From the human T2T-CHM13v2.0 reference genome, Homo sapiens, in the NCBI RefSeq assembly GCF_009914755.1, contig NC_060947.1: DNA of 64,000 nucleotides; one strand, given 5' to 3'. Under the pieces are notes generated by a model. The model saw only the letters and a list, made by a program, of their open reading frames with translations. It made no database searches and was not told the DNA's origin. The translations under genes and the position numbers were made by a program. The first letter of the stretch is position 1; every line of letters starts with the position of its first letter. Shown one piece after another: positions 27,230-51,820 of this stretch.

Positions 27230-27231
27230 TG

Positions 27232-27279
<48 letters not shown>
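27230..27279. repeat. (GC)n(CA)n microsatellite
   Basis: GCGCGCGCACACACA... about 21 CA units. Confidence 0.95.
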
Positions 27280-27280
<1 letters not shown>

Positions 27281-28723
27281 TCATGTGCTTGGCTTATGGC
27301 CCAAATAAGATCCATGCATAAAAATTAAAGGTAAAATTTTTATTTTAAATATGTACTTTGTCAAACTTCTGCAATAATTATAAAAGCCTTAAATTATGAA
27401 TAGAGTAAAGGGAGTTTGTTATTAGTATCAAACTCTCCTAGACACAGTTTTATTTTTATTATGATTTTTCTTTTAACTCATGGTGATCTTTGTGTGTCTT
27501 TTTACATTTTTAAATATACAGGGCCATTGAAGGTTTTCTTTAGGCATTAACTTTTTAATTTTTGTATTATAGTTAGAAAATTTCAGATTCTTTGAAATTT
27601 GAGAAGACATACTTTATGTCAAGTGGGTAACCAAGTTTTAGAAAATTTTCTGGAACGCTTGAAAAGAACGTGTTCTCCAATTATTTCATGTAGTTTTCTA
27701 TATATGTCCATTACAAGGAGCTTATTAAACTATTAAATCTTTTATATTTATATTAGTTTGATCTCTATGCCAGTCATAGACCATTCTCACAGCTGGTGAG
27801 AATATGCTGAATTATCCCAGTATAATGGCGGATTTGTTCATTTCTATTTTCATTCTGTTAATTTTTCTTTTATGTATATTATATATAAATGCCATTTAAT
27901 TAGATGCATATAGATTTAAATTCTTATAGCTATCTGAGAACTTAACAGATTTTCTCAAATGGATGACTGTTTTATCCATAAGGATGACTTTAGCATTAAT
28001 ATTTAATTCATCTGATGTTGATACAGTTAAGCCTCTTTTCCTTGGGTTAACATATATTTGGTCTTTGGTTTTCCATCATCTTCTTTTCAAACCTTTTGTG
28101 TCTTTATCTTTTCATTATAGAGTTTAATCTGTTTGTATCCATTGTGTTTGTGGACTCATTTCTATCATCTTATATTGTACTTTCTGTTAGTATACTTGCT
28201 GTTCATATCACTTTTATTCTGTCTACCTTGTTTGTGTTTGTTTTATTTTAGCTTATTACCATTTTATTTTGTCCTTTATTGGGTCAGAAGTCACATCCTC
28301 TAATTTCATCCTTTTATTGGATATTATAGAAATGTTATAATATATATTTTTTGAAGTGTGTACACAAATAAAGTGAATGAGTAACCTGAGTCTTCTTCAG
28401 AAAAATATAAAGACCACACAAAGTGGGCACATAGCTGTGGAGGGACAAAGGTGATGCTGGGCACACAGACTGACCACACAGAGCTGGGTCTCTTCAACAA
28501 TGTCGTATGTCTACGTGAAGAAGGATGCCAAGGCACACTCTAAGATAATGTGTGTTGGGGGGGAGGAGGCGTGTGTGTGAATGTGTGCGGCACACCTGAT
28601 GCATGCTCAGGAGTGTATGTATATCTGTGCACCATTGTTTTTAATTCAAAAAGTGCATAGCTTTCATTTTCACAGGAAGTTATGATGCCTCATACAGCAA
28701 GTACCTTTGGTACCTTTGGATAG

Positions 28724-29026
<303 letters not shown>

Positions 29027-30260: not shown

Positions 30261-31398
30261 GTGATAAACTATGAGCATGCAGTTTTGACTCCATTTGCCA
30301 GTGTTGTGGACTAAAGTTGTGAGGACAGAATGGTTTGTGTTTTCATAAGTTTTCTTATGCAAAGTTGATTTGATGACAGTGGCCTCCTAAGAATGAACTT
30401 TCATCAAAACATTGAGGTCTCCAACCAAACAGACACAAAAGCACTCCTTAATGTGGGAGTCTTCAGTACCATATAAAATGTGCAAATTAGCAACATTTCT
30501 GAGTATTGAGCTCCAAGATTCAACTCTGGAATATTTTATGGTTTTCTTTGTTTTAATACTTAATGGAGGAGACACATTTTTGCTTGTAAACGAATAAACT
30601 CATGTGTCTAATTATGTATTAGGAAAATGAGGTCATTTCCTTCTATGTGGTAATATATTCACATATAGGGGGAAATGCCATAATATATGGGACAATAAGG
30701 TGAATAATACTATACTAACAAATATAATAATATGAATAATATGAAAAAAACATCAAGAGATGGAATTAACTTTAAATACAGGGCAGATATATTTTTATCG
30801 GCTTGCTGGGCTAGCACTTTTCCTTACTTCTCTCCCTGAAGGGTCCCCAATTCTGTTTCTATTCTGTGTGTCTTTTTCCCCCACTTCCGTGGACATGTGT
30901 CCAGTGCCCCTTCCCCCAAAGCCCTTCAACTAGTTATTCTCTAGCAGAACATTTTTCTGCCAGTAAAAATATTTTCTTTCAGGAATTGGCTAAAAGCTGT
31001 TTTCATAAAAACTTCCCTATATGAATCGAGCCTATAATTATCTGGCTCTTTCTTAGGATTTCTGCAGAGCGTATGCACACCTAAAGCGTACCAATTCACA
31101 CTTGGTTCCGGGGTCTATAGTAGAGTCACAGAAACATGACTCCTGTCATGAATGCAAGCTAGGATGTGGTCCCTACAGCAGGGGATGTGTCTCGAATGCC
31201 TCTTCAATCCTTGTACAGTGTCTAATGCAGTACTGCTTCCACAGTGTTGAGCAGCAGTCCTTAAGAGGGTGGGGTTTAGAGTTTGTTCTTTGCAGACCTG
31301 AGTTTTAATCCTGACTCTATAACCTATAAGCAGTATAAGAAAGTTACTCAAACTGTCTGTCTCATTTGTCCAGTGGGGACACTCCTCATTTTACAGGG

Positions 31399-31885
31399 TG
31401 TGATGGTTAATTTCAGGTGTCAACGTGACTGCCTTAAGGAATACGTCAGGAGTTGATAAAGCATTGTTTCTAGGTGAGCCTGTGCAGATACTCCCATGAA
31501 GATTGGTGTGAGCTGCTGGACGGAGTGGGGAAGATGTCTTCAATAGAAACAGGCCCCATCCAATTCTCTGAGCGCCCAGATAGAAGAAACAGGGCAGAGG
31601 AAAGGCACTTTCCTCCCTTTCTCTCCTGGAGCTGAGACTCTTCTTTTCCTGCCCTTGGACATCAGAACTTCAGGCTCTTTTTATACTAAGAGTTATACTA
31701 TCCACTTCCCTGGTTCTGAGGTTTTTGGTTGTGACCTGAGTCACACTCCTGGCATCCCTGGGGCTCCACCTTGCAAACAGTCTGCCCTGAGACTTTTCAG
31801 CCTCTAATTCCCCTAATAAATCCCCTCTCATCTGTCTTTGCTGATAACCTGTTGGTAGCGTCTCTCTAGAGCCCCGATTAATCCA
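31399..31885 (+). mobile_element. MLT2C/D-type ERVL LTR
   Basis: Starts TGTGATGGTTAATTTCAGGTGTCAAC; contains CCTAATAAATCCCCTCTC. Confidence 0.75.
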
Positions 31886-33934
31886 TAGGGGTAATGTGAG
31901 GGAGAAATGAGGTCATGCATGGAGAGCATTTCACACCCTGCCTGACACATGCCCAGGTCCAACAGGCTGCAGCTACAGTTATTCTAGAGCTTAGCATCAA
32001 TGTTCAAAATAGCGGAAGGCCTTCCCTCTGGTACCCAGCCATCGCGTTGAGCTTCTCCTGTCATTTTTCAATTCCAGAGTGTTTTTTGAGAGCAATTCTG
32101 TGTCGTGTGTATCACTGACGTGGGGCCAAAAACAATCGGTATGCGTGGGGATCTGAAGCTGGGAATGACCAATAGGTCAGAAAGTTCTTAGGAGTCAGGA
32201 GCAGAGGAAGCTGCATGGTCAAGGGGAATCGACGTGAGCCTTCCTGCCGTGTGTCCCATTTCCTGCGGTCTAATGAGACAGAGACATATGTATGTATGCA
32301 TCAGCTCATGCTTAGCTCTTTAATATGTACAAGGTGTTTTCAAATTCTCCCACCGTCTTTGACAGCTGAGAATTTCAGATCACCTGTTGTTCATGACTGC
32401 TGTCAAGGGGATCCTCCTTTTAGGGACACAGGAAGATTTGCCTAAAAACGTCAGGAAGCTTTGATATCTATTATTTTATTATAAAAATCAACTACAGCTT
32501 TGCTGCTATATTACTTTGGGTCTTTACTCATTCCACTGTTTATTTTAAGCCTCAGCTTGTGGATAGTTGGAGAAGGAGGGAAAATATGTAACACTGTTAT
32601 TAAATATTTTACTGTGTATGTAACATGTAGAATAAAGCAAGACTTGAAGATGTAGTATTTATGAATGCTCCAACAAATAAAATATTATTTAAATTATTGA
32701 TTTCTAATTAAACGACTTATTGTCCATAATGAATTAAAATAGTTTGTGAAAATAAATTCATTGATACTTTTGCATTTATAATTTGAGAATCATAGTAACT
32801 TTCCAAATCTGAAAATGCCTGAAACACAAGACTGCCAATCATCACAATAAAACATGAAGCCCTAGTGAACGAGCTAGTCAGGATGGGTTCCCAACAAATA
32901 GCAGTTGAAGCTCTTACTGCCATGAAATGATGAAAGAAACACGGTTTAAGTGCCATGGATAATTATTTCAATGCCAAAAGAATCATCACAGACTGTTGTG
33001 ACATGCAGAGCTTGAATGGAAATATGGCATTAAAATAAGGTGCACAAAATTAATTCTTGAATGTAATTTTTAAACACATTGCAAAATTGCTCCCTAATAT
33101 ACACCAAACCCAAAAGTGACCACTGACAAGATGAGTTTATTTCAGTTTTTATGCTGTCATTATGGAAAACACTATAGCAGAAAGTTCACCAATTTCCCTT
33201 TGGAAAGAGATATACAACCACAGCCAATAGGCTTTCCTAAAAGACAGCAGGAGCTTTTCATGCGGACTTGTTTCCCATCCATAACATACAAATATTTATT
33301 GTCCAGGGTCAATACAGCCTTGCAAATAAACAGGCTTTGAGTTATACCAAGCATGCTCATTCTTATATGGTATTTCCATATAAGAAATACAAAAGAAATA
33401 TACCACAAAATGATGGTGTTCAGGACATAGGGCAACGCCCTGTTTCTGTGGTATAGCGTCCTAGGTTTCGTAGGATTCCATAGGAGGCAGCTACAAGTTC
33501 AACTTGCAAAGCTCTGAAATCTCTTCCTAAGCTAATGAAGTGAAGCCCTGACTGCACCAAGGAAAGGATGAAACAGAACCCATTTATTGTTTCTCAAATG
33601 ATGCTACCATCTCTTCAAAGCCACCATTAATTTTAACGTCTTTAAAGCTATAAGAACAATCTATGTAACAAGTGAAAACTGCCTATAAAATTACTGCTTT
33701 ACATCTCAAACCCTTATTATATGGAAATTCATATTTTCAGAATCACATAAAAGTTTAACGTGCTATTCATTATAAGATTAAAGGGCATGAGTTATTCTGC
33801 CTGTGTAATTATTAACAATTGAAAATTAAATCGTGATAATTTTGTACTCTTTTCTTCTTAAAATAATTTCCTTTCTCCTTTTGCCTGAGACCCATGCTTG
33901 AACAATATTAACGTCTTACCCTCTAAAATAAATG

Positions 33935-34300
33935 ATTATATATAATATATAAATATGTTTTATATGTGTATTTATACATAAAATATATTTGTAAATATTT
34001 CTATATATAATCTACGAATTATATAAAAATACATATATTAATATATACATATATAGTAGGTTCTAGTATATCTAGAAAAGACCTGTGTATTTCTAAGATA
34101 TATATATAATCTATATCTATATATTTATATTTATATTATATATAAATATATAATCCATATTTCTATATTTGTATTTATATATTTTATATATAAATGTATA
34201 TAATCTATATAGGTTTGTATATAGTAAATATAGTTGTATATTACATTTTATTTACATATGCTTCTATATATTTGTATACAGTAAATTCTATATATAGAAA
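33935..34300. repeat. AT-rich low-complexity tract
   Basis: Degenerate (TA)n. Confidence 0.85.
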
Positions 34301-34713
34301 GGACCTGTGTATTTCTAACGCATGGAAATATGAAATGTACTTTTTGTCTCCTCAGTTGCGAATATAAAAAGGCTTTTTTCAAGTAGATAGATTTTTCTCT
34401 ACTTTGAATTTTTCTTCTTAAATATATTAGGTTGTAGGGAGGGGACGCTGAAAGGAAAGAGATGGAAACGATTCTTTCATCGGTTTCTATAACCGAAAAG
34501 GTATTTTAACAATGAAACCTAAGTAGGTAGAATCCAGTTCTTGGTACTTGGTGTATGTGCTAGCAAGATTGCATGAAGAAACAAACCGTGTAAGAAGCGG
34601 AGTCATCCTGTGAAGGGGAAATTTGTCTCCAGTGTTCAGCCATGACGCAATCCTTATCCTCCTGTCTGGCTAACTGTGACCTGTCCCTGTGACCTTAACC
34701 CCACGGGACCCCA

Positions 34714-37700
34714 CTTCCCTCCCTCCCCACACACCACCTATTCCTCCCTCCCTCCCTCCCTCCCCACACACCTCCTCTTCCTCCCTCCCTCCCCACACAC
34801 CTCTTCCTCCCTCCCTCCCTCCCCACACACCACCTCTTCCTCCCTCCCTCCCCACACACCTCTTCCTCCCTCCCTCCCTCCCCACACACCTCTTCCTCCC
34901 TCCCTCCCCACACACCACCTCTTCCTCCCTCCCTCCCTCCCCACACACCTCTTCCTCCCTCCCTCCCTCCCCACACACCTCTTCCTCCCTCCCTCCCTCC
35001 CCACACACCTCCTCTTCCTCCCTCCCTCCCTCCCCACACACCACCTCTTCCTCCCTCCCTCCCTCCCCTCACACCACCTCTTCCTCCCTCCCTCCCTCCC
35101 CACACACCACCTCTTCCTCCCTCCCTCCCCACACACCACCTCTTCCTCCCTCCCTCCCTCCCCACACACCACCTCTTCCTCCCTCCCTCCCCACACACCT
35201 CCTCTTCCTCCCTCCCTCCCTCCCCACACACCACCTCTTCCTCCCTCCCTCCCTCCCCACACACCACCTCTTCCTCCCTCCCTCCCTCCCCACACACCTC
35301 TTCCTCCCTCCCTCCCTCCCCACACACCTCCTCTTCCTCCCTCCCTCCCTCCCCACACACCACCTCTTCCTCCCTCCCTCCCTCCCCTCACACCACCTCT
35401 TCCTCCCTCCCTCCCTCCCCACACACCACCTCTTCCTCCCTCCCTCCCCACACACCACCTCTTCCTCCCTCCCTCCCCACACACCACCTCTTCCTCCCTC
35501 CCTCCCTCCCCACACACCACCTCTTCCTCCCTCCCTCCCCACACACCACCTCTTCCTCCCTCCCTCCCCACACACCTCTTCCTCCCTCCCTCCCTCCCCT
35601 CACACCACCTCTTCCTCCCTCCCTCCCTCCCCTCACACCACCTCTTCCTCCCTCCCTCCCTCCCCACACACCTCCTCTTCCTCCCTCCCTCCCCACACAC
35701 CACCTCTTCCTCCCTCCCTCCCTCCCCACACACCACCTCTTCCTCCCTCCCTCCCCACACACCTCTTCCTCCCTCCCTCCCTCCCCACACACCACCTCTT
35801 CCTCCCTCCCTCCCCACACACCACCTCTTCCTCCCTCCCTCCCTCCCCACACACCTCCTCTTCCTCCCTCCCTCCCCACACACCTCTTCCTCCCTCCCTC
35901 CCTCCCCACACACCACCTCTTCCTCCCTCCCTCCCTCCCCACACACCTCTTCCTCCCTCCCTCCCTCCCCACACACCACCTCTTCCTCCCTCCCTCCCTC
36001 CCCTCACACCACCTCTTCCTCCCTCCCTCCCTCCCCACACACCTCCTCTTCCTCCCTCCCTCCCCACACACCTCTTCCTCCCTCCCTCCCTCCCCACACA
36101 CCACCTCTTCCTCCCTCCCTCCCCACACACCACCTCTTCCTCCCTCCCTCCCTCCCCACAACACCCACCTCTTCCTCCCTCCCTCCCTCCCCACACACCA
36201 CCTCTTCCTCCTCCCTCCCTCTCCCACACACCACCTCTTCCTCCCTCCCTCCCTCCCCACACACCTCCTCTTCCTCCCTCCCTCCCCACACACCTCTTCC
36301 TCCCTCCCTCCCTCCCCACACACCACCTCTTCCTCCCTCCCTCCCCACACACCACCTCTTCCTCCCTCCCTCCCCCTCCCCACACACCACCTCTTCCTCC
36401 CTCCCTCCCCACACACCACCTCCTCCCTCCCTCCCCACACACCACCTCTTCCTCCTCCCTCCCTCCCCACACACCACCTCTTCCTCCCTCCCTCCCCACA
36501 CACCACCTCTTCCCCCCTCCCTCCCCACACACCACCTCTTCCCCCCTCCCTCCCCACACACCACCCTCTTCCCCCCTCCCTCCCCACACACCACCTCTTC
36601 CCCCCTCCCTCCCTCCCTCCCCACACACCTCCTCTTCCTCCCTCCCTCCCCACACACCACCTCTTCCTCCCTCCCTCCCCACACACCTCTTCCTCCCTCC
36701 CTCCCCACACACCACCTCTTCCTCCCTCCCTCCCCACACACCACCCTCCTTCCTCCCTCCCTCCCTCCCCACACACCACCTCTTCCTCCCTCCCTCCTCC
36801 CCACACACCACCTCTTCCTCCCTCCCTCCCCACACACACCTCTTCCTCCCTTCCCTCCCCACACACCACCTCTTCCTCCCTCCCTCCCCACACACACCTC
36901 TTCCTCCCTCCCTCCCCACACACCACCTCTTCCTCCCTCCCTCCTCACACACCACCTCTTCCTCCCTCCCTCCCTCCCCACACACCACCTCTTCCTCCCT
37001 CCCTCCCTCCCCACACACCTCTTCCTCCCTCCCTCCCTCCCCACACACCACCTCTTCCTCCCTCCCTCCCTCCCCACACACCTCTTCCTCCCTCCCTCCC
37101 CACACACCACCTCTTCCTCCCTCCCTCCCTCCCCACACACCTCCTCTTCCTCCCTCCCTCCCTCCCCACACACCACCTCTTCCTCCTCCCTCCCCACACA
37201 CTTCTTCCTCCCTCCCTCCCCACACACCTCCTCTTCCTCCCTCCCTCCCCACACACCTCTTCCTCCCTCCCTCCCCACACACCTCCTCTTCCTCCCTCCC
37301 TCCCCACACACCTCTTCCTCCCTCCCTCCCTCCCCACACACCTCCTCTCCCTCCCTCCCTCCCTCCCTCCCCACACACCACCTCTTCCTCCCTCCCTCCC
37401 TCCCCACACACCTCCTCTTCCTCCCTCCCTCCCCACACACCACCTCTTCCTCCTCCCTCCCTCCCCACACACCTCTTCCTCCCTCCCTCCCTCCCCACAC
37501 ACCACCTCTTCCTCCCTCCCTCCCCACACACCTCTTCCTCCCTCCCTCCCCACACACCACCTCTTCCTCCCTCCCTCCCCACACACCTCTTCCTCCCTCC
37601 CTCCCTCCCCACACACCTCCTCTCCCTCCCTCCCTCCCTCCCCACACACCTCCTCTTCCTCCCTCCCTCCCCACACACCTCTTCCTCCCTCCCTCCCTCC

Positions 37701-40700
37701 CCACACACCACCTCTTCCTCCCTCCCTCCCCACACACCTCTTCCTCCCTCCCTCCTCCCCACACACCTCTTCCTCCCTCCCTCCCCACACACCACCTCTT
37801 CCTCCCTCCCTCCCTCCCCACACACCTCTTCCTCCCTCCCTCCCTCCCCACACACCTCTTCCTCCCTCCCTCCCTCCCCACACACCTCCTCTTCCTCCCT
37901 CCCTCCCTCCCCACACACCACCTCTTCCTCCCTCCCTCCCTCCCCTCACACCACCTCTTCCTCCCTCCCTCCCTCCCACACACCACCTCTTCCTCCCTCC
38001 CTCCCCACACACCACCTCTTCCTCCCTCCCTCCTCCCCACACACCACCTCTTCCTCCCTCCCTCCCCACACACCTCCTCTTCCTCCCTCCCTCCCTCCCC
38101 ACACACCACCTCTTCCTCCCTCCCTCCCTCCCCACACACCACCTCTTCCTCCCTCCCTCCCTCCCCACACACCTCTTCCTCCCTCCCTCCCTCCCACACA
38201 CCTCCTCTTCCTCCCTCCCTCCCTCCCCACACACCACCTCTTCCTCCCTCCCTCCCTCCCCTCACACCACCTCTTCCTCCTCCCTCCCTCCCCACACACC
38301 ACCTCTTCCTCCTCCCTCCCCACACACCACCTCTTCCTCCCTCCCTCCCCACACACCACCTCTTCCTCCCTCCCTCCCTCCCCACACACCACCTCTTCCT
38401 CCCTCCCTCCCCACACACCACCTCTTCCTCCCTCCCTCCCCACACACCTCTTCCTCCCTCCCTCCCTCCCCTCACACCACCTCTTCCTCCCTCCCTCCCT
38501 CCCCTCACACCACCTCTTCCTCCCTCCCTCCCTCCCCACACACCTCCTCTTCCTCCCTCCCTCCCCACACACCACCTCTTCCTCCCTCCCTCCCTCCCCA
38601 CACACCACCTCTTCCTCCCTCCCTCCCCACACACCTCTTCCTCCCTCCCTCCCTCCCCACACACCACCTCTTCCTCCCTCCCTCCCCACACACCACCTCT
38701 TCCTCCCTCCCTCCCTCCCCACACACCTCCTCTTCCTCCCTCCCTCCCCACACACCTCTTCCTCCCTCCCTCCCTCCCCACACACCACCTCTTCCTCCCT
38801 CCCTCCCTCCCCACACACCTCTTCCTCCCTCCCTCCCTCCCCACACACCACCTCTTCCTCCCTCCCTCCCTCCCCTCACACCACCTCTTCCTCCCTCCCT
38901 CCCTCCCCACACACCTCCTCTTCCTCCCTCCCTCCCTCCCCACACACCACCTCTTCCTCCCTCCCTCCCCACACACCTCTTCCTCCCTCCCTCCCCACAC
39001 ACCTCCTCTTCCTCCCTCCCTCCCTCCCCACACACCACCTCTTCCCCCCTCCCTCCCCACACACCACCTCTTCCTCCCTCCCTCCCTCCCCACACACCTC
39101 CTCTTCCTCCCTCCCTCCCTCCCCACACACCACCTCTTCCTCCTCCCTCCCCACACACTTCTTCCTCCCTCCCTCCCCACACACCTCCTCTTCCTCCCTC
39201 CCTCCCCACACACCTCTTCCTCCTCCCTCCCCACACACCTCCTCTTCCTCCTCCCTCCCCACACACCTCTTCCTCCCTCCCTCCTCCCCACACACCTCCT
39301 CTCCCTCCCTCCCTCCCTCCCTCCCCACACACCACCTCTTCCTCCCTCCCTCCCTCCCCACACACCTCCTCTTCCTCCTCCCTCCCCACACACCACCTCT
39401 TCCTCCCTCCCTCCCTCCCCACACACCTCTTCCTCCCTCCCTCCCTCCCCACACACCACCTCTTCCTCCTCCCTCCCCACACACCTCTTCCTCCCTCCCT
39501 CCCCACACACCACCTCTTCCTCCCTCCCTCCCACACACCTCTTCCTCCCTCCCTCCCTCCCCACACACCTCCTCTCCCTCCCTCCCTCCCTCCCCACACA
39601 CCTCCTCTTCCTCCCTCCCTCCCCACACACCTCTTCCTCCCTCCCTCCCTCCCCACACACCACCTCTTCCTCCCTCCCTCCCCACACACCTCTTCCTCCC
39701 TCCCTCCCTCCCCACACACCTCTTCCTCCCTCCCTCCCCACACACCACCTCTTCCTCCCTCCCTCCCTCCCCACACACCTCTTCCTCCCTCCCTCCCTCC
39801 CCACACACCTCTTCCTCCCTCCCTCCCTCCCCACACACCTCCTCTTCCTCCCTCCCTCCCTCCCCACACACCACCTCTTCCTCCCTCCCTCCCTCCCCTC
39901 ACACCACCTCTTCCTCCCTCCCTCCCTCCCCACACACCACCTCTTCCTCCCTCCCTCCCCACACACACCTCTTCCTCCCTCCCTCCCTCCCCACACACCA
40001 CCTCTTCCTCCCTCCCTCCCCACACACCTCCTCTTCCTCCCTCCTCCCTCCCCACACACCACCTCTTCCTCCCTCCTCCCTCCCCACACACCACCTCTTC
40101 CTCCTCCCTCCCTCCCCACACACCCTCTTCCTCCCTCCCTCCCTCCCCACACACCTCCTCTTCCTCCCTCCCTCCCTCCCCACACACCACCTCTTCCTCC
40201 CTCCCTCCCTCCCCTCACACCACCTCTTCCTCCCTCCCTCCCTCCCCACACACCACCTCTTCCTCCCTCCCTCCCCACACACCACCTCTTCCTCCCTCCC
40301 TCCCCACACACCACCTCTTCCTCCCTCCCTCCCTCCCCACACACCACCTCTTCCTCCCTCCCTCCCCACACACCTCCTCTTCCTCCCTCCCTCCCTCCCC
40401 ACACACCACCTCTTCCTCCCTCCCTCCCTCCCCACACACCACCTCTTCCTCCCTCCCTCCCTCCCCACACACCTCTTCCTCCCTCCCTCCCTCCCCACAC
40501 ACCTCCTCTTCCTCCCTCCCTCCCTCCCCACACACCACCTCTTCCTCCCTCCCTCCCTCCCCTCACACCACCTCTTCCTCCCTCCCTCCCTCCCCACACA
40601 CCACCTCTTCCTCCCTCCCTCCCCACACACCACCTCTTCCTCCCTCCCTCCCCACACACCACCTCTTCCTCCCTCCCTCCCTCCCCACACACCACCTCTT

Positions 40701-43700
40701 CCTCCCTCCCTCCCCACACACCTCCTCTTCCTCCCTCCCTCCCTCCCACACACCACCTCTTCCTCCTCCCTCCCTCCCCACACACCACCTCTTCCTCCCT
40801 CCCTCCCTCCCCACACACCTCTTCCTCCCTCCTCCCTCCCACACACCTCCTCTTCCTCCCTCCCTCCCTCCCCACACACCACCTCTTCCTCCCTCCCTCC
40901 CTCCCCTCACACCACCTCTTCCTCCCTCCCTCCCTCCCCACACACCACCTCTTCCTCCCTCCCTCCCCACACACCACCTCTTCCTCCCTCCCTCCCCACA
41001 CACCACCTCTTCCTCCCTCCCTCCCTCCCCACACACCACCTCTTCCTCCCTCCCTCCCCACACACCACCTCTTCCTCCCTCCCTCCCACACACCTCTTCC
41101 TCCTCCCTCCCTCCCCTCACACCACCTCTTCCTCCCTCCCTCCCTCCCCTCACACCACCTCTTCCTCCCTCCCTCCCTCCCCACACACCTCCTCTTCCTC
41201 CTCCCTCCCCACACACCACCTCTTCCTCCCTCCCTCCCTCCCCACACACCACCTCTTCCTCCCTCCCTCCCCACACACCTCTTCCTCCCTCCCTCCCTCC
41301 CACACACCACCTCTTCCTCCCTCCCTCCCCACACACCACCTCTTCCTCCCTCCCTCCCTCCCCACACACCTCCTCTTCCTCCCTCCCTCCCCACACACCT
41401 CTTCCTCCCTCCCTCCCTCCCCACACACCACCTCTTCCTCCCTCCCTCCCTCCCACACACCTCTTCCTCCCTCCCTCCCTCCCCACACACCACCTCTTCC
41501 TCCCTCCCTCCCTCCCCACACACCACCTCTTCCTCCCTCCTCCCCACACACCTCCTCTTCCTCCCTCCCTCCCTCCCCACACACCACCTCTTCCTCCCTC
41601 CCTCCCCACACACCTCTTCCTCCCTCCCTCCCCACACACCACCTCTTCCCCCCTCCCTCCCCACACACCACCTCTTCCTCCCTCCCTCCCTCCCCACACA
41701 CCTCCTCTTCCTCCCTCCCTCCCTCCCCACACACCACCTCTTCCTCCCTCCCTCCCCACACACTTCTTCCTCCCTCCCTCCCCACACACCTCCTCTTCCT
41801 CCCTCCCTCCCCACACACCTCTTCCTCCCTCCCTCCCCACACACCTCCTCTTCCTCCCTCCCTCCCCACACACCTCTTCCTCCCTCCCTCCCTCCCCACA
41901 CACCTCCTCTCCCTCCCTCCCTCCCTCCCTCCCCACACACCACCTCTTCCTCCCTCCCTCCCTCCCCACACACCTCCTCTTCCTCCCTCCCTCCCCACAC
42001 ACCACCTCTTCCTCCCTCCCTCCCTCCCCACACACCTCTTCCTCCCTCCCTCCCTCCCCACACACCACCTCTTCCTCCCTCCCTCCCCACACACCTCTTC
42101 CTCCCTCCCTCCCCACACACCACCTCTTCCTCCCTCCCTCCCCACACACCTCTTCCTCCCTCCCTCCCTCCCCACACACCTCCTCTCCCTCCCTCCCTCC
42201 CTCCCCACACACCTCCTCTTCCTCCCTCCCTCCCCACACACCTCTTCCTCCCTCCCTCCCTCCCCACACACCACCTCTTCCTCCCTCCCTCCCCACACAC
42301 CTCTTCCTCCCTCCCTCCTCCCCACACACCTCTTCCTCCCTCCCTCCCCACACACCACCTCTTTCCTCCTCCCTCCCTCCCCACACACCTCTTCCTCCCT
42401 CCCTCCCTCCCCACACACCTCTTCCTCCCTCCCTCCCTCCCCACACACCTCCTCTTCCTCCCTCCTCCCTCCCCACACACCACCTCTTCCTCCCTCCCCT
42501 CCCTCCCCTCACACCACCTCTTCCTCCCTCCCTCCCTCCCCACACACCACCTCTTCCTCCCTCCTCCCACACACCACCTCTTCCTCCCTCCCTCCCTCCC
42601 CACACACCACTCTTCCTCCCTCCCTCCCCACACACCTCCTCTTCCTCCCTCCCTCCCTCCCCACACACCACCTTCTTCCCTCCCTCCCCTCCCCACACAC
42701 CACCTCTTCCTCCTCCCTCCCTCCCCACACACCTCTTCCTCCCTCCCTCCCTCCCCACACACCTCCTCTTCCTCCCTCCCTCCCTCCCCACACACCACCT
42801 CTTCCTCCCTCCCTCCCTCCCCTCACACCACCTCTTCCTCCCTCCCTCCCTCCCCACACACCACCTCTTCCTCCCTCCCTCCCCACACACCACCTCTTCC
42901 TCCCTCCCTCCCCACACACCACCTCTTCCTCCCTCCCTCCCTCCCCACACACCACCTCTTCCTCCCTCCCTCCCACACACCACCTCTTCCTCCCTCCCTC
43001 CCCACACACCTCTTCCTCCCTCCCTCCCTCCCCTCACACCACCTCTTCCTCCCTCCCTCCCTCCCCTCACACCACCTCTTCCTCCCTCCCTCCCTCCCCA
43101 CACACCTCCTCTTCCTCCCTCCCTCCCCACACACCACCTCTTCCTCCCTCCCTCCCTCCCCACACACCACCTCTTCCTCCCTCCCTCCCCACACACCTCT
43201 TCCTCCCTCCCTCCCTCCCCACACACCACCTCTTCCTCCCTCCCTCCCCACACACCACCTCTTCCTCCCTCCCTCCCTCCCCACACACCTCCTCTTCCTC
43301 CCTCCCTCCCCACACACCTCTTCCTCCCTCCCTCCCTCCCCACACACCACCTCTTCCTCCCTCCCTCCCTCCCCACACACCTCTTCCTCCCTCCTCCCTC
43401 CCCACACACCACCTCTTCCTCCCTCCCTCCCTCCCCTCACACCACCTCTTCCTCCCTCCCTCCCTCCCCACACACCTCCTCTTCCTCCCTCCCTCCCCAC
43501 ACACCTCTTCCTCCCTCCCTCCCTCCCCACACACCACCTCTTCCTCCCTCCCTCCCCACACACCACCTCTTCCTCCCTCCCTCCCTCCCCACACACCACC
43601 TCTTCCTCCCTCCCTCCCTCCCCACACACCACCTCTTCCTCCCTCCCTCCCTCCCCACACACACCTCTTCCTCCCTCCCTCCCTCCCCACACACCTCTTC

Positions 43701-46600
43701 CTCCTCCCTCCCTCCCCTCACACCACCTCTTCCTCCCTCCCTCCCTCCCCACACACCTCTTCCTCCCTCCCTCCCTCCCCACACACCTCTTCCTCCCTCC
43801 CTCCCTCCCCACACACCACCTCTTCCTCCCTCCCTCCCCACACACCTCTTCCTCCCTCCCTCCCTCCCCACACACCACCTCTTCCTCCCTCCCTCCCCAC
43901 ACACCACCTCTTCCTCCCCCTCCCTCCCTCCCCACACACCACCTCTTCCTCCCTCCCTCCCCACACACCACCTCTTCCTCCCTCCTCCCCACACACCCAC
44001 CTCTTCCTCCCTCCCTCCCTCCCCACACACCACCTCTTCCTCCCTCCCTCCCCACACACCACCTCTTCCTCCCTCCCTCCCTCCCTCCCCACACACCACC
44101 TCTTCCTCCCTCCCTCCCCACACACCTCTTCCCTCCCTCCCTCCCTCCCCCACACACCCACCTCTTCCTCCCCTCCCTCCCCACACACCACCTCTTCCTC
44201 CCTCCCTCCCTCCCCACACACCACCTCTTCCTCCCTCCCTCCCTCCCCACACACCTCTTCCTCCCTCCCTCCCCACACACCACCTCTTCCTCCCTCCCTC
44301 CCTCCCTCCCCACACACCACCTCTTCCTCCCTCCCTCCCCACACACCTCTTCCTCCCTCCCTCCCTCCCCACACACCACCTCTTCCTCCCTCCCTCCCCA
44401 CACACCACCTCTTCCTCCCTCCCTCCCTCCCCACACACCTCCTCTTCCTCCCTCCCTCCCCACACACCACCTCTTCCTCCCTCCCTCCCCACACACCCCA
44501 CCTCTTCCTCCCTCCCTCCCCACACACCACCTCTTCCTCCCTCCCTCCCTCCCTCCCACACACCACCTCTTCCTCCCTCCCTCCCCACACACCACCTCTT
44601 CCTCCCTCCCTCCCTCCCCACACACCACCTCTTCCCTCCCTCCCTCCCCACACACCACCTCTTCCTCCCTCCTCCCTCCCTCCCCACACACCACCTCTTC
44701 CTCCCTCCCTCCCCACACACCTCTTCCTCCTCCCTCCCTCCCCACACACCACCTCTTCCTCCCTCCTCCCCACACACCACCTCTTCTCCCTCCCTCCCTC
44801 CCTCCCCACACACCACCTCTTCCTCCCTCCCTCCCCACACACCTCTTCCTCCCTCCCTCCCTCCCACACACCTCCTCTTCCTCCCTCCCTCCCCACACAC
44901 CTCTTCCTCCCTCCCTCCCTCCCCACACACCACCTCTTCCTCCCTCCCTCCCCACACACCACCTCTTCCTCCCTCCCTCCCTCCCCACACACCTCCTCTT
45001 CCTCCCTCCCTCCCCACACACCTCTTCCTCCCTCCCTCCCTCCCCCACACACCACCTCTTCCTCCCTCCCTCCCCACACACCACCTCTTCCTCCCTCCCT
45101 CCCTCCCCACACACCTCTTCCTCCCTCCCTCCCTCCCCACACACCACCTCTTCCTCCCTCCCTCCCTCCCCACACACCACGTCTTCCTCCCTCCCTCCCT
45201 CCCCACACACCTCTTCCTCCCTCCCTCCCTCCCCACACACCTCCTCTTCCCCCCTCCCTCCCTCCCCCCACACCTCTTCCTCCCTCCCTCCCTCCCCACA
45301 CACCACCTCTTCCCCCCTCCCTCCCCCCCACACACCTCTTCCTCCTCCCTCCTCACACACCACCTCTTCTCCCTCCCTCCCTCCCCACACACTTCTTCCT
45401 CCCTCCCTCCCCACACCCTCCTCTTCCTCCCTCCCTCCCCACACACCACCTCTTCCTCCCTCCCTCCCCACACACCTCTTCCCCCTCCCTCCCCACACAC
45501 CACCTCTTCCCCCTCCCTCCCCACACACCACCTCTTCCCCCCTCCCTCCCTCCCTCCCCACACACCTCCTCTTCCTCCCTCCCTCCCCACACACCACCTC
45601 TTCCTCCCTCCCTCCCCACACACCTCTTCCTCCCTCCCTCCCCACACACCACCTCTTCCTCCCTCCCTCCCCACACACCACCTCTTCCTCCCTCCCTCCC
45701 TCCCCACACACCACCTCTTCCTCCCTCCCTCCCTCCCCACACACCACCTCTCCTCCCTCCCTCCCCACACACCTCCTCTTCCTCCCTCCCTCCCTCCCCA
45801 CACACCACCTCTTCCTCCCTCCCTCCCCACACACCTCTTCCTCCCTCCCTCCCCACACACCACCTCTTCCCCCCTCCCTCCCCACACACCACCTCTTCCT
45901 CCCTCCCTCCCTCCCCACACACCTCCTCTTCCTCCCTCCCTCCCTCCCCACACACCACCTCTTCCTCCCTCCCTCCCCACACACTTCTTCCTCCCTCCCT
46001 CCCCACACACCTCCTCTTCCTCCCTCCCTCCCCACACACCTCTTCCTCCCTCCCTCCCCACACACCTCCTCTTCCTCCCTCCCTCCCCACACACCTCTTC
46101 CTCCCTCCCTCCCTCCCCACACACCTCCTCTCCCTCCCTCCCTCCCTCCCTCCCCACACACCACCTCTTCCTCCCTCCCTCCTCCCCACACACCTCCTCT
46201 TCCTCCCTCCCTCCCCCACACTTCTTCCTCCCTCCCTCCCCACACACCTCCTCTTCCTCCCTCCCTCCCACACACCTCTTCCTCCCTCCCTCCTCACACA
46301 CCACCTCTTCCTCCCTCCCTCCCTCCCCACACACTTCTTCCTCCCTCCCTCCCCACACACCTCCTCTTCCTCCCTCCCTCCCCACACACCTCTTCCTCCC
46401 TCCCTCCCCACACACCACCTCTTCCTCCCTCCCTCCCCACACACCTCTTCCTCCCTCCCTCCCCACACACCACCTCTTCCCCCCTCCCTCCCCACACACC
46501 ACCTCTTCCCCCCCTCCCTCCCTCCCCACACACCACCTCTTCCTCCCTCCCTCCCTCCCCACACACCACCTCTTCCCCCCTCCCTCCCTCCCTCCCCACC
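34714..46600. repeat. RU2 VNTR of the CRI-S232 element (~11.9 kb, roughly 400 units of 26/29/30/33 bp)
   Basis: Unit CCCCACACA[CCA|CCT|-]CCTCTTCCT(CCCT)2-3; extreme strand asymmetry; lies immediately 3' of a VCX gene as known for S232 repeats. Confidence 0.95.
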
Positions 46601-46645
46601 ATCAGAGAACACGGAGTCACTCAGATCAATTTGCAACACATTCAT

Positions 46646-46651
46646 TTTATT
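46646..46651 (-). terminator. VCX2 polyadenylation signal AATAAA
   Basis: TTTATT on the + strand, 62 nt after the stop codon. Confidence 0.85.
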
Positions 46652-46713
46652 ATCTTCAGAATGGCAAGCACCCCGCTGGTGAGATCTCTGAGGTCTGGCG
46701 GCTGGGCCTGAAC

Positions 46714-47550
<837 letters not shown>

Positions 47551-48054
47551 TGACATCTAATGAGGAAGGCAGGGTGCTCTAATTGGAGAAAGGGAGATTT
47601 GGGTTAGCACCCCTAAAGATAGTTCCCAAACTGACATGTCGCCCCTCCTAAACTCCCCATGTTCAATTTTGGCAGATCACGTGGCACGGGAGGATATTTC
47701 CGCCACATGTTTCCCCCGGACCTCCCATTCAGTGGTACATTCTGTTCCTCCACACCTGCCATCATTACCCAGTTTCTGTATGACCTATCTAAAATCCCTC
47801 CATGCTAACTGGGATGGATGGAGGGCTATACGAAGATGTCAATCATCCCTCTCTCCTACAAATTCCTCTGCTACACCTTGAGGATCATTCACTTCTTGGA
47901 TGCCATGAAACAACTTTTCCATCTCACATACTTCTCCCAGCATCCACATAGTGCCTCACAATTTTTCATTCTCATGGTTTAAAGCACTGGCTTCCAGAGG
48001 TCAAGATCAGCAAACACACTCTCTCAGCTGGGTATCGGTATCAGGCTGGGTTTC

Positions 48055-48281
48055 GGTATCAGGCTGGGTTCCTCAGAGAAGGAGAAACTAAACCAACAGG
48101 ATATTGTGTGTGTGTGTGTGTGTGTGTAATATTATATATCATAAATATATATTTACTATCATGTAGTATTTATGAATTATATATATGATACAGTTTATTC
48201 TAAGTAATTGGCTCACACATTCACTCAATGTGGGGGTCTAGGAAGCTGAAATATATAGGGCAAGTGAGCAGGCTGGAAACT
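48055..48281 (-). mobile_element. MLT2-family LTR fragment with (TG)n
   Basis: GGGTTCCTCAGAGAA...AACCAACAGGA(TG)n...AATTGGCTCACA. Confidence 0.55.
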
Positions 48282-48740
48282 AAAAGCTTCTGCACAGCCA
48301 ACAGTCAACAAAATGAAAAGGCAGGCTATGGTTTGGGAGAAGCTATTTGCGAACCATGTATCTAATAATGAGTTAATATCCAAAATATATAAAGAACTCA
48401 CACAGCTCAATAGCAAATAAATAAATAGTCTGGTTAACAAATAGGCAAAGGACTTGAATAGGCATTTCTAGAAGGAAAACACACAACTGGCCAACAGGTA
48501 TATGAAAATGTGCTCAACATCGTTAATAATCAGAGAATGCAAATGAAAACCACAATGAACTATCACCTCACTGTTACACGCTGTTGACAGACGTGTAATT
48601 GGTACAGCCGTTATAAAAAACAGTGTAATGGTTCCTTGGAAAATCAAAATAGATCTACCATGTGACCCAGCAGTTCATCTGTTAAGTATGTACCACCCCC
48701 CAAAAATGAAGTCCACATCTCATATAGATATCTCCAGTAC
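48282..48740 (+). mobile_element. Old L1M ORF2 3' fragment
   Basis: AAAAGCTTCTGCACAGC...AATATCCAAAATATATAAAGAACTC. Confidence 0.8.
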
Positions 48741-49869
48741 TAACTAATTGTAACTCATTAATTACACAGGAAATTAGAGTTTCTATTTGAAAAGAATGTT
48801 TTTTTCACCATTCTGGTATCAAATATTTATTCTAGTCATCTCTTCTTATTTCTTGCTTTGTAATAACCTAGGTACTCACTACCCATTGACAGAACCAACT
48901 TATTATTCCAACAAGAAATGAGAAATACTGAGGAGAATGCAATGTGATACTTCTGTCTTCAACCAGTTATTCCAGTTTTATGGAGGATTCTGTATTTAAC
49001 TCTTACTCAGGTAACTCTAGTTACCAAATCCATAGTACCTAGTCAACAATCCTAAAAAAGTAAGAATACAGAATTGACTCGAATGGTTACTAAACTTTCT
49101 ATGTTCAACCAGTTTTCCTAGTAATTGCTAGTTGTTTGTTCAACTAGTACTGAGAAGAATTTGTTTATTCCAGGTACTGGCTTCATGTAGTTATCTCTAG
49201 TTAATTACTCACTTGGATAAAGTAGATATCTACTATATTAGGTAATATTTCTAACATGAGGTTGGAATTTTGCATTGAGGAAAATGGTTATTGAACTCCC
49301 TGGCATAGGCCAGTTATCTTCAGCTTCCTGCAATCAATTACCTGGTCTGGCTAATTCTAGCTATCTTTAGGTTGCTAATTACATGTTTACCACCAGATGT
49401 CTGTGGTAATTTATTATTCCAACAAAAAATAGTAGAATGATTAGGAAGGATTTTGCTTTTTCCAGGCATCACATAGATATTCAAATTATCTCCTGTTATC
49501 CTTTGGACCTTTTTTTCCTGGGTAGCACTCAGCACCTATCCTTATAAGTTCTTATACCAACTAAAATGAATAATTGAGACTTGCAAAGAACACGATTTTC
49601 AGGATCAGGTTCACTTAGTATTGCAATGACTGTTAGCTCTTTCTATGTAACGTGTTTCATGGGAAAGCCCAGTTAAGTAGAACTCATATATTAACTCAAC
49701 ACCAACAAAATTTTATCTGACCTGACTAGATTCCCTATGTTCTACATTCCACTGAACTATTGTTGTTGTCTCTATTTTACTACTTACTTAGGTATATGAC
49801 TCATCTGTAGTAGTAATTCATTATTCCAACAATAACTCAGCAGTAAGTGGTGAGAAGAACGTGATTTTA

Positions 49870-51820
49870 TTTTTAAAATTTATTTTTACTGAGGTAAAAT
49901 ATACACATGTAATGCACCCTCTTTACCACTTGTAAGTGTGCAGTTCAGTGGTAATATTTATATTCTTGTATTTATATTCTTTTATTTCCCCTTCATCCCC
50001 CGCTTCCCCTTCTGGCCTCTGGTAACCATCACTATAGTCACCATCTTCATGAGAACCACTTTTTTAGCTCCCATATATGAGTGAAAACATGCAATCTTTG
50101 TTTTTCTGTGCCTGGCTTATTTCCTTTAACATAATATCCAGTCATTCTTTTTATGCCTGGATAATATTCCATTGTGTACATATGCCACATTTGCCTAATC
50201 CATTCATCCGTCGATGGGCACTTAGGCTAAATCCATATTTTGGCTATCGTGACTTGCAATACACATGAGTATGCAGATATATCTCTTTGATATACAGATA
50301 AATTTATTTATCTATCTATCCATCTCTCTCTCTCTCTCTCTCTTTCCCCAGCAGTGGAATACTTGGATCATATACTAGTTCTATTTTTAGGATTTTGAGG
50401 AACCCCATACTGTTCTCCATAGGGGCTGTAGTAAATTACATTCCCACCAACAGTGTACACAGGTTCCCCTTTCTCCACCTCCTTGCTAGCATCTGTTCAT
50501 GCCTGTCTTTTGATAAAAGCCATTTTAACTGGGGTGAGATGATATTGCATTGTTTTGATTTGTATTTCTCTGATGATTCATAATAAGCATATTTTCATAT
50601 GCCTGCTGGTCATTTTTGTGTCTTCTTTTGAGAAATATCTATTCAGATTATTTGTCCATTTTTAAGTCAGATTGTTTGTTATTAAATTTTTTGAGCTCCT
50701 TATGTATTCTGATTATGAATCCCTTATCAGATGGATACTTTGCAAATATTTTCTGCCATTCTGTGGGTTGTCTCTTCACTTGGTTGATAATTTCCTTTGC
50801 TATGCAGAAGCTTTTTAACTTGATGTAATCCCAGTAGTTTATTTTTGCTTTGGTTCTTGTGCTTTTGAGGTCGTACTCAAGAAGTCTTTGCCCAGACCAA
50901 TGTCCTGGAGCATTTCCCCAATGTTTCTTGGTGGTTTCAGTTACAGGTCATAAATTCAAGTCTTTTTTTCTTTTTTTTTTTCAACAGAGTCTCATCTCAC
51001 TCTGTTGTTCAGGCCTAGGCTGGAGTGCAGTGTCACCATCTCAGTTCACTATAACATCCACCTCCTCGGTTCAAGTGATTCTCGTGCCCCAGCCTCCAGA
51101 GTAGCTGGGATTACAGGTGTGCACCACCACACCTGGCTAAGTTTTGTAGTTTTTGTAGAGACGGGGTTTCACCATACTGGCCAGGCTGGTCTCAAACCCC
51201 TGACCTCAAGTGACCCACTCACCTCGACCTCCCAAAGTGCTAGGATTACAGGCGTGAGCCACCACTCCCAGCCAGATTCAAGTCTTTAACCCATTTTTGA
51301 TTTGCTTTTTGTGTGTGGTGAAAGATAGGAATCTAGTTTCATTCTTCTGCATATACTTATCCAGCTTTCTAGTACTATTTATTGACATGTCGGTCTTTTC
51401 AGCATCATATGTTCTTTTTGTCTTTGTTTCAGTTGAGTTGGTTGTAAGCATGTGGCTTTATATATGGGTTCTCTATTCTGCTCCATTTGTCTCTGTGTCT
51501 GTTTTTAAGCCAGTACCATGCTGCTTGGTTTACTATAGCTTTGTAGTAAATTTTGAAGTCAGGTAGTGTGATGCTTCCAGCTTTTCACTTTTTGCTCAGG
51601 ATTGCTTTGGCTATTTGAGGTATTTTATGGTTTCCTATGAATATTATAAGTTTTTTCCTATTTCTGTGAAGAATGTCATTGGTATTTTGATAGGACTTGC
51701 ATTTAATCTGTTAATCGCTTTGGTGAGTATTGTGATTTATACAATATTAATCCTGTCAATCTATGAGCCTGGACTATCTTTCCATGTTTTTGTGTCCTGA
51801 GAAGACAGTGTTTTTTAAAT
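49870..51820 (-). mobile_element. L1MA/MB-type 3' portion interrupted by an Alu
   Basis: Long reverse L1 ORF2/3'UTR sequence (e.g. TATTTCTGTGAAGAATGTCATTGGTATTTTGATAGG). Confidence 0.8.
50962..51273 (-). mobile_element. Alu (older S/J type)
   Basis: Reverse Alu with TSD ATTCAAGTCTTT. Confidence 0.88.

What the first reader, a model, noticed from the sequence alone, without database searches (positions are those of the whole stretch)
34714..46600. About 400 tandem PRDM9 hotspot motifs in a 12-kb array
Seen: nearly every unit ends in CCTCCCTCCCCAC, an exact match to CCTCCCTNNCCAC; the count is an estimate from length divided by ~30. Established: this is the PRDM9-A motif, and RU2 of the S232/VCX repeats is implicated in the NAHR deletions of STS that cause X-linked ichthyosis. 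Inference: allele length could tune DSB and NAHR rate, and so large an array could act as a local PRDM9 sink that renews itself by DSB-driven expansion instead of eroding.
Basis: partly seen in the sequence, partly recalled or inferred. Interest (0 to 1): 0.75.

Follow-up and report, generated by a model that had tools for sequence, protein, structure and literature searches.

The report
Known VCX2 minisatellite of PRDM9 motifs
This is the already-described RU2 minisatellite just past the end of the VCX2 gene, here an unusually long 11.9-kb copy carrying 333 exact matches to the human recombination-hotspot motif, and its role in the deletions that cause X-linked ichthyosis is already in print.

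Summary
Window 34714-46604 is one 11,891-bp tandem array with only one G on the + strand. It has about 388 units of 26-33 nt. 333 units carry the exact CCTCCCTCCCCAC, all on the + strand and none elsewhere in the window; 0.19 are expected by chance.

It is the RU2 minisatellite of the CRI-S232/VCX low-copy repeat, starting 22 nt past the VCX2 3' end. Papers already call it a minisatellite of PRDM9 motifs that PRDM9 binds very strongly (PMC5705219). They also name it as the recombination site for STS deletions (PMC9317125, PMC6116924), and propose that motif concentration there affects NAHR (PMC3759717).

Added here, from this one assembly:
- The array is 6.5-24 times longer than its five paralogues.
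- It holds 4.3% of all exact motif matches in the genome.
- It grew by kb-scale internal block duplications.
- The motif is neither more eroded nor better preserved than the rest of the unit.

The "PRDM9 sink" and "self-renewal" ideas remain untested. Verdict: already known, low to moderate interest.

The parts
34714..46604 (+). RU2 minisatellite array: about 388 units of 26-33 nt, with 333 exact CCTCCCTCCCCAC on the + strand. The - strand, which is the VCX2 sense strand, is the G-rich one.
   Evidence: One G in 11,891 bp, at 45181. 206 canonical G4 motifs on the - strand.
30796..34713 (.). Left flank of the low-copy repeat, homologous to the other VCX/VCY loci.
   Evidence: window 30796-34713 matches G000:C23:6081036-6085039 at 90%; the last 414 bp match five paralogues at 87-97%.
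46605..50441 (.). Right flank of the low-copy repeat, containing VCX2.
   Evidence: window 46761-48571 is 96% identical, and 48574-50441 86% identical, to the 6.087-6.091 Mb partner; the 156 bp next to the array match five paralogues at 88-95%.
46626..47949 (-). VCX2 gene. Its 3' end lies 22 nt from the array.
   Evidence: Coordinates come from the hub's RefSeq table in the finding. The sequence was read.
46646..46651 (-). AATAAA polyadenylation signal of VCX2, about 42 nt upstream (in the gene's sense) of the first array base.
   Evidence: Read directly.
46761..46824 (-). The 30-bp coding repeat of VCX2 (RU1 by recalled name), 2.1 copies.
   Evidence: It lies inside the coding part 46714-47031 of the hub's table.
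35439..36064 (+). Longest exactly repeated block inside the array. Its second copy is at 38311-38936, offset 2872.
   Evidence: The wider blocks 34744-36200 and 37616-39072 are 98.6% identical.
37185..38832 (+). Block duplicated at 41747-43394 (offset 4562), 99.4% identical.

Best explanation
The array is the RU2 variable-number tandem repeat of the CRI-S232/VCX low-copy repeat. It sits directly downstream of VCX2, and this assembly carries a very long allele of it. Most units hold an exact match to the 13-mer recognised by the common human PRDM9 allele. In meiosis PRDM9 binds along the array, marks the chromatin, and double-strand breaks follow. Two kinds of misaligned repair then matter. Repair against the same array out of register, on the sister chromatid or the homologue, changes its length and makes its units more alike. 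Repair against the directly oriented array at the VCX3A locus, 1.65 Mb away, gives the recurrent STS deletion or duplication. Shown here: the anatomy, the motif counts, the paralogues and their orientation, and the internal block duplications. Taken from papers: PRDM9 binding and the use of RU2 as a recombination site. Inferred: that the block duplications and the great length of this allele came from meiotic breaks.
For: Anatomy and counts. Position 22 nt past the VCX2 3' end: and the hub's table. The same array lies between the same flanks at three other chrX sites and two chrY sites. Their lengths are 1826, 498, 1499, 936 and 907 bp, with 48, 13, 47, 13 and 12 exact motifs. The 6.085 Mb copy has the same orientation as the window's and lies 1.65 Mb away, which fits the typical 1.6-Mb deletion stated in PMC10606178. 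Higher-order structure: exact repeats up to 626 bp occur at offsets 2872, 4562, 5175 and 7434. Unit-order autocorrelation is 0.28, 0.24 and 0.20 at shifts of 243, 149 and 94 units, against a largest value of 0.192 in 200 shuffles. Block copies are 98.6-99.8% identical, against 93.5% for an arbitrary pairing. The X paralogues share unit types with the window array (52 of 59, 8 of 16, 37 of 48 units) but not unit order, the longest shared run being 5 units. The blocks therefore arose inside this array. Papers, read in passages: PMC5705219, PMC9317125, PMC6116924, PMC3759717, PMC7615360. The hub's RefSeq table marks 34432-46719 as a non-allelic homologous recombination region and 32910-50394 as a meiotic recombination region.
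Against: No binding, break or crossover data could be examined here. The published PRDM9 binding was measured in transfected HEK293T cells and reported for 'VCX', and short reads cannot tell the four X arrays apart. The array does not offer longer uninterrupted identity with its partner than the flanks do: the longest shared exact tracts are 198 bp in the array, 270 bp in the left flank and 322 bp in the right flank. Its advantage is in number of tracts of 100 bp or more: 81 against 2 and 3. X-chromosome hotspots are reported to favour deletions, which sits badly with a very long allele having been built by meiotic breaks. The Y copies also carry 12-13 exact motifs yet are short and degenerate, with 23 G and 2 of 39 unit types shared. 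Motif presence alone therefore does not give a long, homogeneous array.
Confidence: 0.85

Rival explanations
1. The array's length and turnover come mainly from replication-based instability of a strand-asymmetric repeat that can form G-quadruplexes. The mechanisms would be slippage, fork stalling with template switching, or break-induced replication in mitotic germline divisions. The PRDM9 motif would then be a passenger for length change, even if it matters for NAHR.
For: There are 206 non-overlapping canonical G4 motifs on the - strand of the array, against 1 and 1 on the two strands of the other 52 kb. There is one G in 11,891 bp on the + strand. Pyrimidine-only runs reach 32 nt. kb-scale tandem block duplications are also what template switching produces. 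Motif positions vary no less and no more than the neighbouring spacer: 1.17 against 1.19 variants per 100 positions.
Against: The Y-linked copies keep many G-rich units yet are short and diverged. PMC7615360 reports that indels in tandem repeats inside hotspots are larger and about 2-fold biased to insertions compared with those outside, so hotspot activity does affect repeats. This rival does not exclude the best explanation, and both processes may act.
Confidence: 0.25
2. The array acts as a local sink that holds enough PRDM9 to matter for other sites. It escapes the usual erosion of hotspot motifs because breaks inside it lead to expansion that makes new motif copies.
For: The array holds 333 of the 7,674 exact motif matches in the whole assembly, or 4.3%. 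By my count from the spacings, it also holds 285 of the 557 adjacent motif pairs. No other cluster can be larger, since only 272 pairs lie outside it. Block duplication copies motif-bearing units by the hundred. Variant density in the motif is not raised. My two searches found no paper stating the idea (only the 15 and 12 listed titles and abstract starts were looked at).
Against: A few per cent of the strongest-consensus sites is a small share, and smaller still in a diploid cell with one X. PRDM9 also binds many sites beyond the exact 13-mer; the 360 looser matches in the array compare with far more genome-wide (number recalled, not measured). Units of 26-33 nt are about the size of one zinc-finger footprint (recalled), so not all sites can be filled at once. 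Breaks close together on one chromatid suppress each other (established for ATM/Tel1, recalled), so break number should not rise in step with length. X hotspots favour deletions. The three other X arrays in the same genome are 0.5-1.8 kb, so long length is not the rule.
Confidence: 0.1
3. The array serves VCX2 expression. It could be a platform through which PRDM9 deposits H3K4me3 and switches the gene on in early meiosis. It could also be a G-rich pause or termination zone just after the poly(A) site.
For: PMC5705219 reports that human PRDM9, but not its zinc fingers alone or the chimpanzee allele, activates VCX in HEK293T cells. It binds in the gene body and at the minisatellite. The array starts 22 nt after the annotated 3' end and about 42 nt after AATAAA, and it is G-rich on the sense strand.
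Against: The authors themselves state that this does not show necessity or sufficiency in vivo. Array length differs 24-fold among paralogues of one genome, which argues against a length-constrained function. The terminator idea rests on resemblance only.
Confidence: 0.15

Closest known systems
RU2 VNTR of the CRI-S232 / VCX low-copy repeats on Xp22.31
   Same: It lies at the 3' end of a VCX gene, is a strand-asymmetric minisatellite of about 30-bp units, has copies at the other VCX/VCY loci between the same flanks, and is annotated and published as the NAHR site for STS deletions (and the hub's table).
   Different: Nothing in kind. This allele, at 11.9 kb, is far longer than the roughly 0.8-kb stretch that carries the RefSeq motif and tandem-repeat features in the hub's table, and than the five paralogues in the same assembly. 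I recall a published size range of 0.6 to over 23 kb (Li et al. 1992). That paper was not held, so I did not see it.
Hypervariable GC-rich minisatellites of the kind studied by Jeffreys
   Same: Short GC-rich units, strand asymmetry, many interspersed variant units (74 distinct among 389), and a position in a meiotic hotspot.
   Different: Germline mutation rate and polarity were not measurable here. The array shows kb-scale higher-order blocks rather than only single-unit variation.
Other minisatellites whose units carry the exact 13-mer
   Same: One search lists arrays at C2:1.056 Mb, C10:0.41 Mb, C11:69.07 and 70.97 Mb, and C12:130.68 Mb with a motif match in successive units.
   Different: In the listed part each shows from 5 to about 30 adjacent pairs, against 285 computed for the window array. 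They have different units and are not paralogous to it.

Membership tests
RU2 VNTR of the CRI-S232/VCX low-copy repeat | Lies at the 3' end of a VCX-family gene | tested here: met
   The array ends at 46604. The VCX2 3' end is at 46626 (hub's table) and AATAAA is at 46646-46651 on the - strand.
RU2 VNTR of the CRI-S232/VCX low-copy repeat | Strand-asymmetric minisatellite with units of about 30 bp | tested here: met
   Period 29 or 33, about 388 copies. One G in 11,891 bp on the + strand.
RU2 VNTR of the CRI-S232/VCX low-copy repeat | Paralogous arrays between the same flanks at the other VCX and VCY loci | tested here: met
   Both flanks match three more chrX sites at 94-97% and two chrY sites at 87-88%, each enclosing an array. 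The gene names of those sites are inferred from recalled map order.
RU2 VNTR of the CRI-S232/VCX low-copy repeat | Length polymorphism between individuals | not testable with these tools
   Only one assembly was available. One indirect hint: the RefSeq motif and tandem-repeat features in the hub's table cover only 45789-46740, as if carried over from a much shorter allele.
PRDM9-A dependent meiotic hotspot | Match to the 13-mer CCNCCNTNNCCNC, best form CCTCCCTNNCCAC (motif as given in the finding and in PMC3759717) | tested here: met
   333 exact and 360 degenerate matches.
PRDM9-A dependent meiotic hotspot | PRDM9 occupancy and PRDM9-dependent H3K4me3 | not testable with these tools
   Published for the VCX minisatellite in transfected HEK293T cells (PMC5705219). 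The paralogue was not resolved.
PRDM9-A dependent meiotic hotspot | Meiotic double-strand breaks (DMC1 signal) and exchange events at the site | not testable with these tools
   PMC6116924 states that X-linked ichthyosis breakpoints contain a PRDM9 hotspot, citing Myers 2008 and Pratto 2014. Those two papers were not held.
NAHR substrate pair for the recurrent STS deletion | Directly oriented paralogous partner at the right distance | tested here: met
   The partner array at C23:6085040-6086865 is on the same strand. The window array is at C23:7722714-7734604, so the two lie 1.65 Mb apart end to end.
NAHR substrate pair for the recurrent STS deletion | Long tracts of uninterrupted identity between the partners | tested here: inconclusive
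   The longest shared exact tract is 198 bp in the array, against 270 and 322 bp in the flanks. The array offers 81 tracts of 100 bp or more, against 2 and 3.

The most novel reading that the evidence does not exclude
RU2 allele length sets the local break load. This 11.9-kb VCX2 allele is the largest cluster of exact PRDM9-A motifs in a complete human genome: 4.3% of all matches and about half of all adjacent pairs. It would then be a high-risk allele for Xp22.31 deletion and duplication. It would also keep its motifs because kb-scale block duplication replaces units faster than break repair erodes them.
Probability: 0.15. Interest if true: 0.55.

Novelty: already known. Interest (0 to 1): 0.25.

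Why it matters
X-linked ichthyosis deletions and Xp22.31 duplications are among the most common recurrent rearrangements in people, and this array is where they are thought to start. That much is known. What complete assemblies add is the true size and inner structure of each allele. If long alleles such as this one raise the rate of breaks or of misaligned repair, then RU2 length, now readable with long reads, would be a measurable risk factor in carrier families. It would also be a natural test of how motif dose shapes hotspot strength. The block structure found here gives array-private sequence junctions. These could let short-read ChIP and break maps be assigned to one paralogue.

Tried and rejected
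1. Motif-specific erosion or protection. I aligned 387 of the 389 units, dropping the first partial unit and the last boundary unit, to the nearest of 16 canonical unit forms. Variants per 100 positions were 1.17 in the 13-mer, 1.19 in the spacer tail, 2.05 in the extra CCTC lead and 0.54 in the rest of the core. There is no signal either way. The variants are not independent, because blocks were copied; for example, the 19 units of type G sit in a few recurring contexts.

2. Import of blocks from paralogues. Rejected: the longest run of identical units shared with any paralogue is 5.

3. The array as the longest tract of identity for NAHR. Not supported.

4. Papers not held: Myers 2008, Li 1992 under my guessed id, Liu 2011, Pratto 2014, and a guessed id for a 2010 review. 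What I say of them comes from citing papers or from recall.

6. Searches for a long-read study of RU2 length, and for the sink or self-renewal idea, listed nothing on point. Only the listed titles and abstract starts were seen, and subscription journals are mostly not in the library.

7. Other primates could not be searched, so I could not test whether the array is as long or as motif-rich where PRDM9 binds other sequences.
Full report
**What is in the sequence**

Tandem Repeats Finder reports one array at 34716-46592 with period 33 or 29, about 388 copies and 85% matches. By composition the array runs from 34714 to 46604. It is 11,891 bp with A 1370, C 7875, T 2645 and a single G on the + strand, at 45181.

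The pattern CCTCCCTNNCCAC matches 333 times. Every match is on the + strand, inside the array, and reads CCTCCCTCCCCAC. There are no matches on the other strand or elsewhere in the 64 kb. Shuffles give a mean of 0.19. The looser CCNCCNTNNCCNC matches 360 times in the array, 24 of them as CCTCCCTCCCCTC.

Splitting at the A-containing cores gives 389 units of 74 distinct kinds. The seven commonest are 26-36 nt long and make up 263 units. They differ by one CCCT, one CCA or one CCT. 333 units carry the motif and 56 do not. The excess over chance reflects copying of one unit, not independent events.

**What it is**

The array starts 22 nt beyond the annotated 3' end of VCX2, which lies on the - strand, and about 42 nt beyond its AATAAA (gene coordinates from the hub's table). 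The 30-bp coding repeat of VCX2 is present in 2.1 copies at 46761-46824.

The unique sequence on both sides of the array recurs in the same assembly at three other chrX places and two chrY places. Each of these encloses an array of the same kind:

| Place | Strand | Length | Exact motifs | Other |
|---|---|---|---|---|
| C23 6.085 Mb | + | 1826 bp | 48 | |
| C23 7.398 Mb | - | 498 bp | 13 | |
| C23 8.033 Mb | - | 1499 bp | 47 | |
| C24 14.964 Mb | - | 936 bp | 13 | 23 G |
| C24 14.891 Mb | + | 907 bp | 12 | 23 G |

By recalled map order these are VCX3A, VCX, VCX3B and the two VCY copies. I did not verify the names.

The homology around the window array extends over 30796-34713, at 90% to the 6.08 Mb partner. 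On the other side it covers 46761-50441, at 96% and then 86%. This is the CRI-S232/VCX low-copy repeat, and the array is its RU2 repeat. [quoted passage not shown] 2005 (passage read). The hub's RefSeq table marks 34432-46719 as a non-allelic homologous recombination region.

**What is already known about how it works**

All of the following were read as passages.
[quoted passage not shown] It adds H3K4me3 over the gene and switches it on in HEK293T cells.
- PMC6116924 lists X-linked ichthyosis among NAHR diseases whose breakpoints hold a PRDM9 hotspot, citing Myers 2008 and Pratto 2014.
[quoted passage not shown] 2011)'. [quoted passage not shown]
- PMC7615360 names the VCX family among the few genes whose mutations had already been attributed to meiotic recombination.

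The feature, its motif content, PRDM9 binding to it, its role in STS rearrangements and the dose idea are therefore all in print. Myers 2008, Liu 2011, Pratto 2014 and Li 1992 were not held, so I did not see them.

Size and share of the genome's motifs:
- The window array is 6.5 to 24 times longer than its five paralogues.
- The whole assembly has 4082 + 3592 = 7,674 exact matches to CCTCCCTNNCCAC. This array holds 4.3% of them, and the six VCX/VCY arrays together hold 466, or 6.1%.
- The assembly has 557 adjacent motif pairs with a gap of 8-38 nt. From the spacings, 285 of these lie in this array. No other cluster can be larger, because only 272 pairs lie outside it.
- The RefSeq motif features in the hub's table begin at 45789, where I count 24 exact motifs. 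The annotation thus covers only the last 0.8 kb or so, as if carried over from a much shorter allele. This is an inference.

Growth by internal duplication:
- The array is built of kb-scale blocks. Exact repeats up to 626 bp occur at offsets of 2872, 4562, 5175 and 7434 bp.
- Unit order correlates with itself at shifts of 94, 149 and 243 units, with values 0.20, 0.24 and 0.28. The largest value in 200 shuffles was 0.192.
- Block copies are 98.6-99.8% identical, against 93.5% for an arbitrary pairing.
- The X paralogues share unit types with this array (52 of 59, 8 of 16, 37 of 48 units) but not unit order, the longest shared run being 5 units. The Y copy shares 2 of 39. The long allele therefore arose by duplications inside this array, not by import from a paralogue.

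Two negative or weaker results:
- Variant density in the 13-mer (1.17 per 100 positions) equals that in the spacer tail (1.19). It lies between the CCTC lead (2.05) and the core (0.54), based on 387 of 389 units. There is no sign of motif-specific erosion or protection.
- Against its directly oriented partner, the array offers 81 shared exact tracts of 100 bp or more, against 2 and 3 in the flanks. Its longest tract (198 bp) is shorter than theirs (270 and 322 bp).

**Mechanism and rivals**

The best reading is the published one. PRDM9 binds along the array and breaks follow. Out-of-register repair changes the array's length. Repair against the same-strand array 1.65 Mb away gives the typical 1.6-Mb deletion described in PMC10606178. 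The step from 'block duplications exist' to 'meiotic breaks made them' is inference.

A replication-based rival is real. The VCX2-sense strand of the array has 206 canonical G4 motifs, against one on each strand of the other 52 kb, and template switching also makes tandem blocks.

PMC7615360 cuts both ways. Tandem repeats inside hotspots show about a 2-fold insertion bias, which favours break-driven growth. But hotspots on the X are biased towards deletions.

The X/Y contrast is long or homogeneous arrays on the X against short, degenerate ones on the Y. It fits turnover that depends on exchange with a homologue, but other differences between the chromosomes could explain it equally well.

**The sink and self-renewal ideas**

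Neither can be tested from sequence. A 4.3% share of exact motifs is striking for one locus. It is still small against all PRDM9 sites, and smaller in a diploid cell with one X. Units of 26-33 nt are about one zinc-finger footprint (recalled), so full occupancy is unlikely. Nearby breaks on one chromatid suppress one another (recalled), so break number should saturate with length. The three other X arrays in the same genome are short. I give these ideas about 0.1.

Two searches listed no paper that states them. That covers only an open-access library and the listed entries.

**Verdict**

This is a correct observation of a known element with a known role. The new content is descriptive: the allele's size, its share of the genome's motifs and its block structure. 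Novelty: already known. Interest: 0.25.

Noticed in passing
L001 (G000:C16:23924738-23927768), match at C16:23926238-23926268: One exact 31-nt copy of the RU2 unit sits on chromosome 16 inside what reads like an Alu element, in place of the Alu's middle part. It could be chance in C-rich sequence or a small templated patch.
   Followed up: no
Each shows from 5 to about 30 adjacent pairs in the listed part.
   Followed up: no
window 34714-46604, - strand: There are 206 non-overlapping canonical G-quadruplex motifs, mostly GGGGAGGGAGGGAGGG, on the VCX2-sense strand. They begin 22 nt after the gene's 3' end. The other 52 kb of the window has one on each strand.
   Followed up: partly
L012 and L013 (G000:C24:14963400-14965000 and 14891000-14892600): The two Y-linked arrays lie in opposite orientation about 73 kb apart. 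They are 936 and 907 bp, carry 23 G each and only 12-13 exact motifs, and share 2 of 39 unit types with the window array. They are far more degenerate than any X copy.
   Followed up: partly
G000:C23:8575113-8575386 and C23:151.50 Mb: A partial copy of the left flank (95% identical over 273 bp) has no matching right flank nearby in the search. More diverged copies (74-80%) lie at 151.50 Mb on the X.
   Followed up: no
window 26119-28730: This stretch matches G000:C23:8346645-8349209 on the opposite strand at 95%. It is a separate duplicated segment outside the VCX repeat.
   Followed up: no
window 34098-34241: An AT-rich, TA-based repeat of about 140 bp lies 470 bp before the array.
   Followed up: no
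window 43900-45750: This part of the array has the most one-off unit variants: 21 of 60 units in that row of the unit map, against 3-10 in the other full rows. It looks like the least recently copied part.
   Followed up: no
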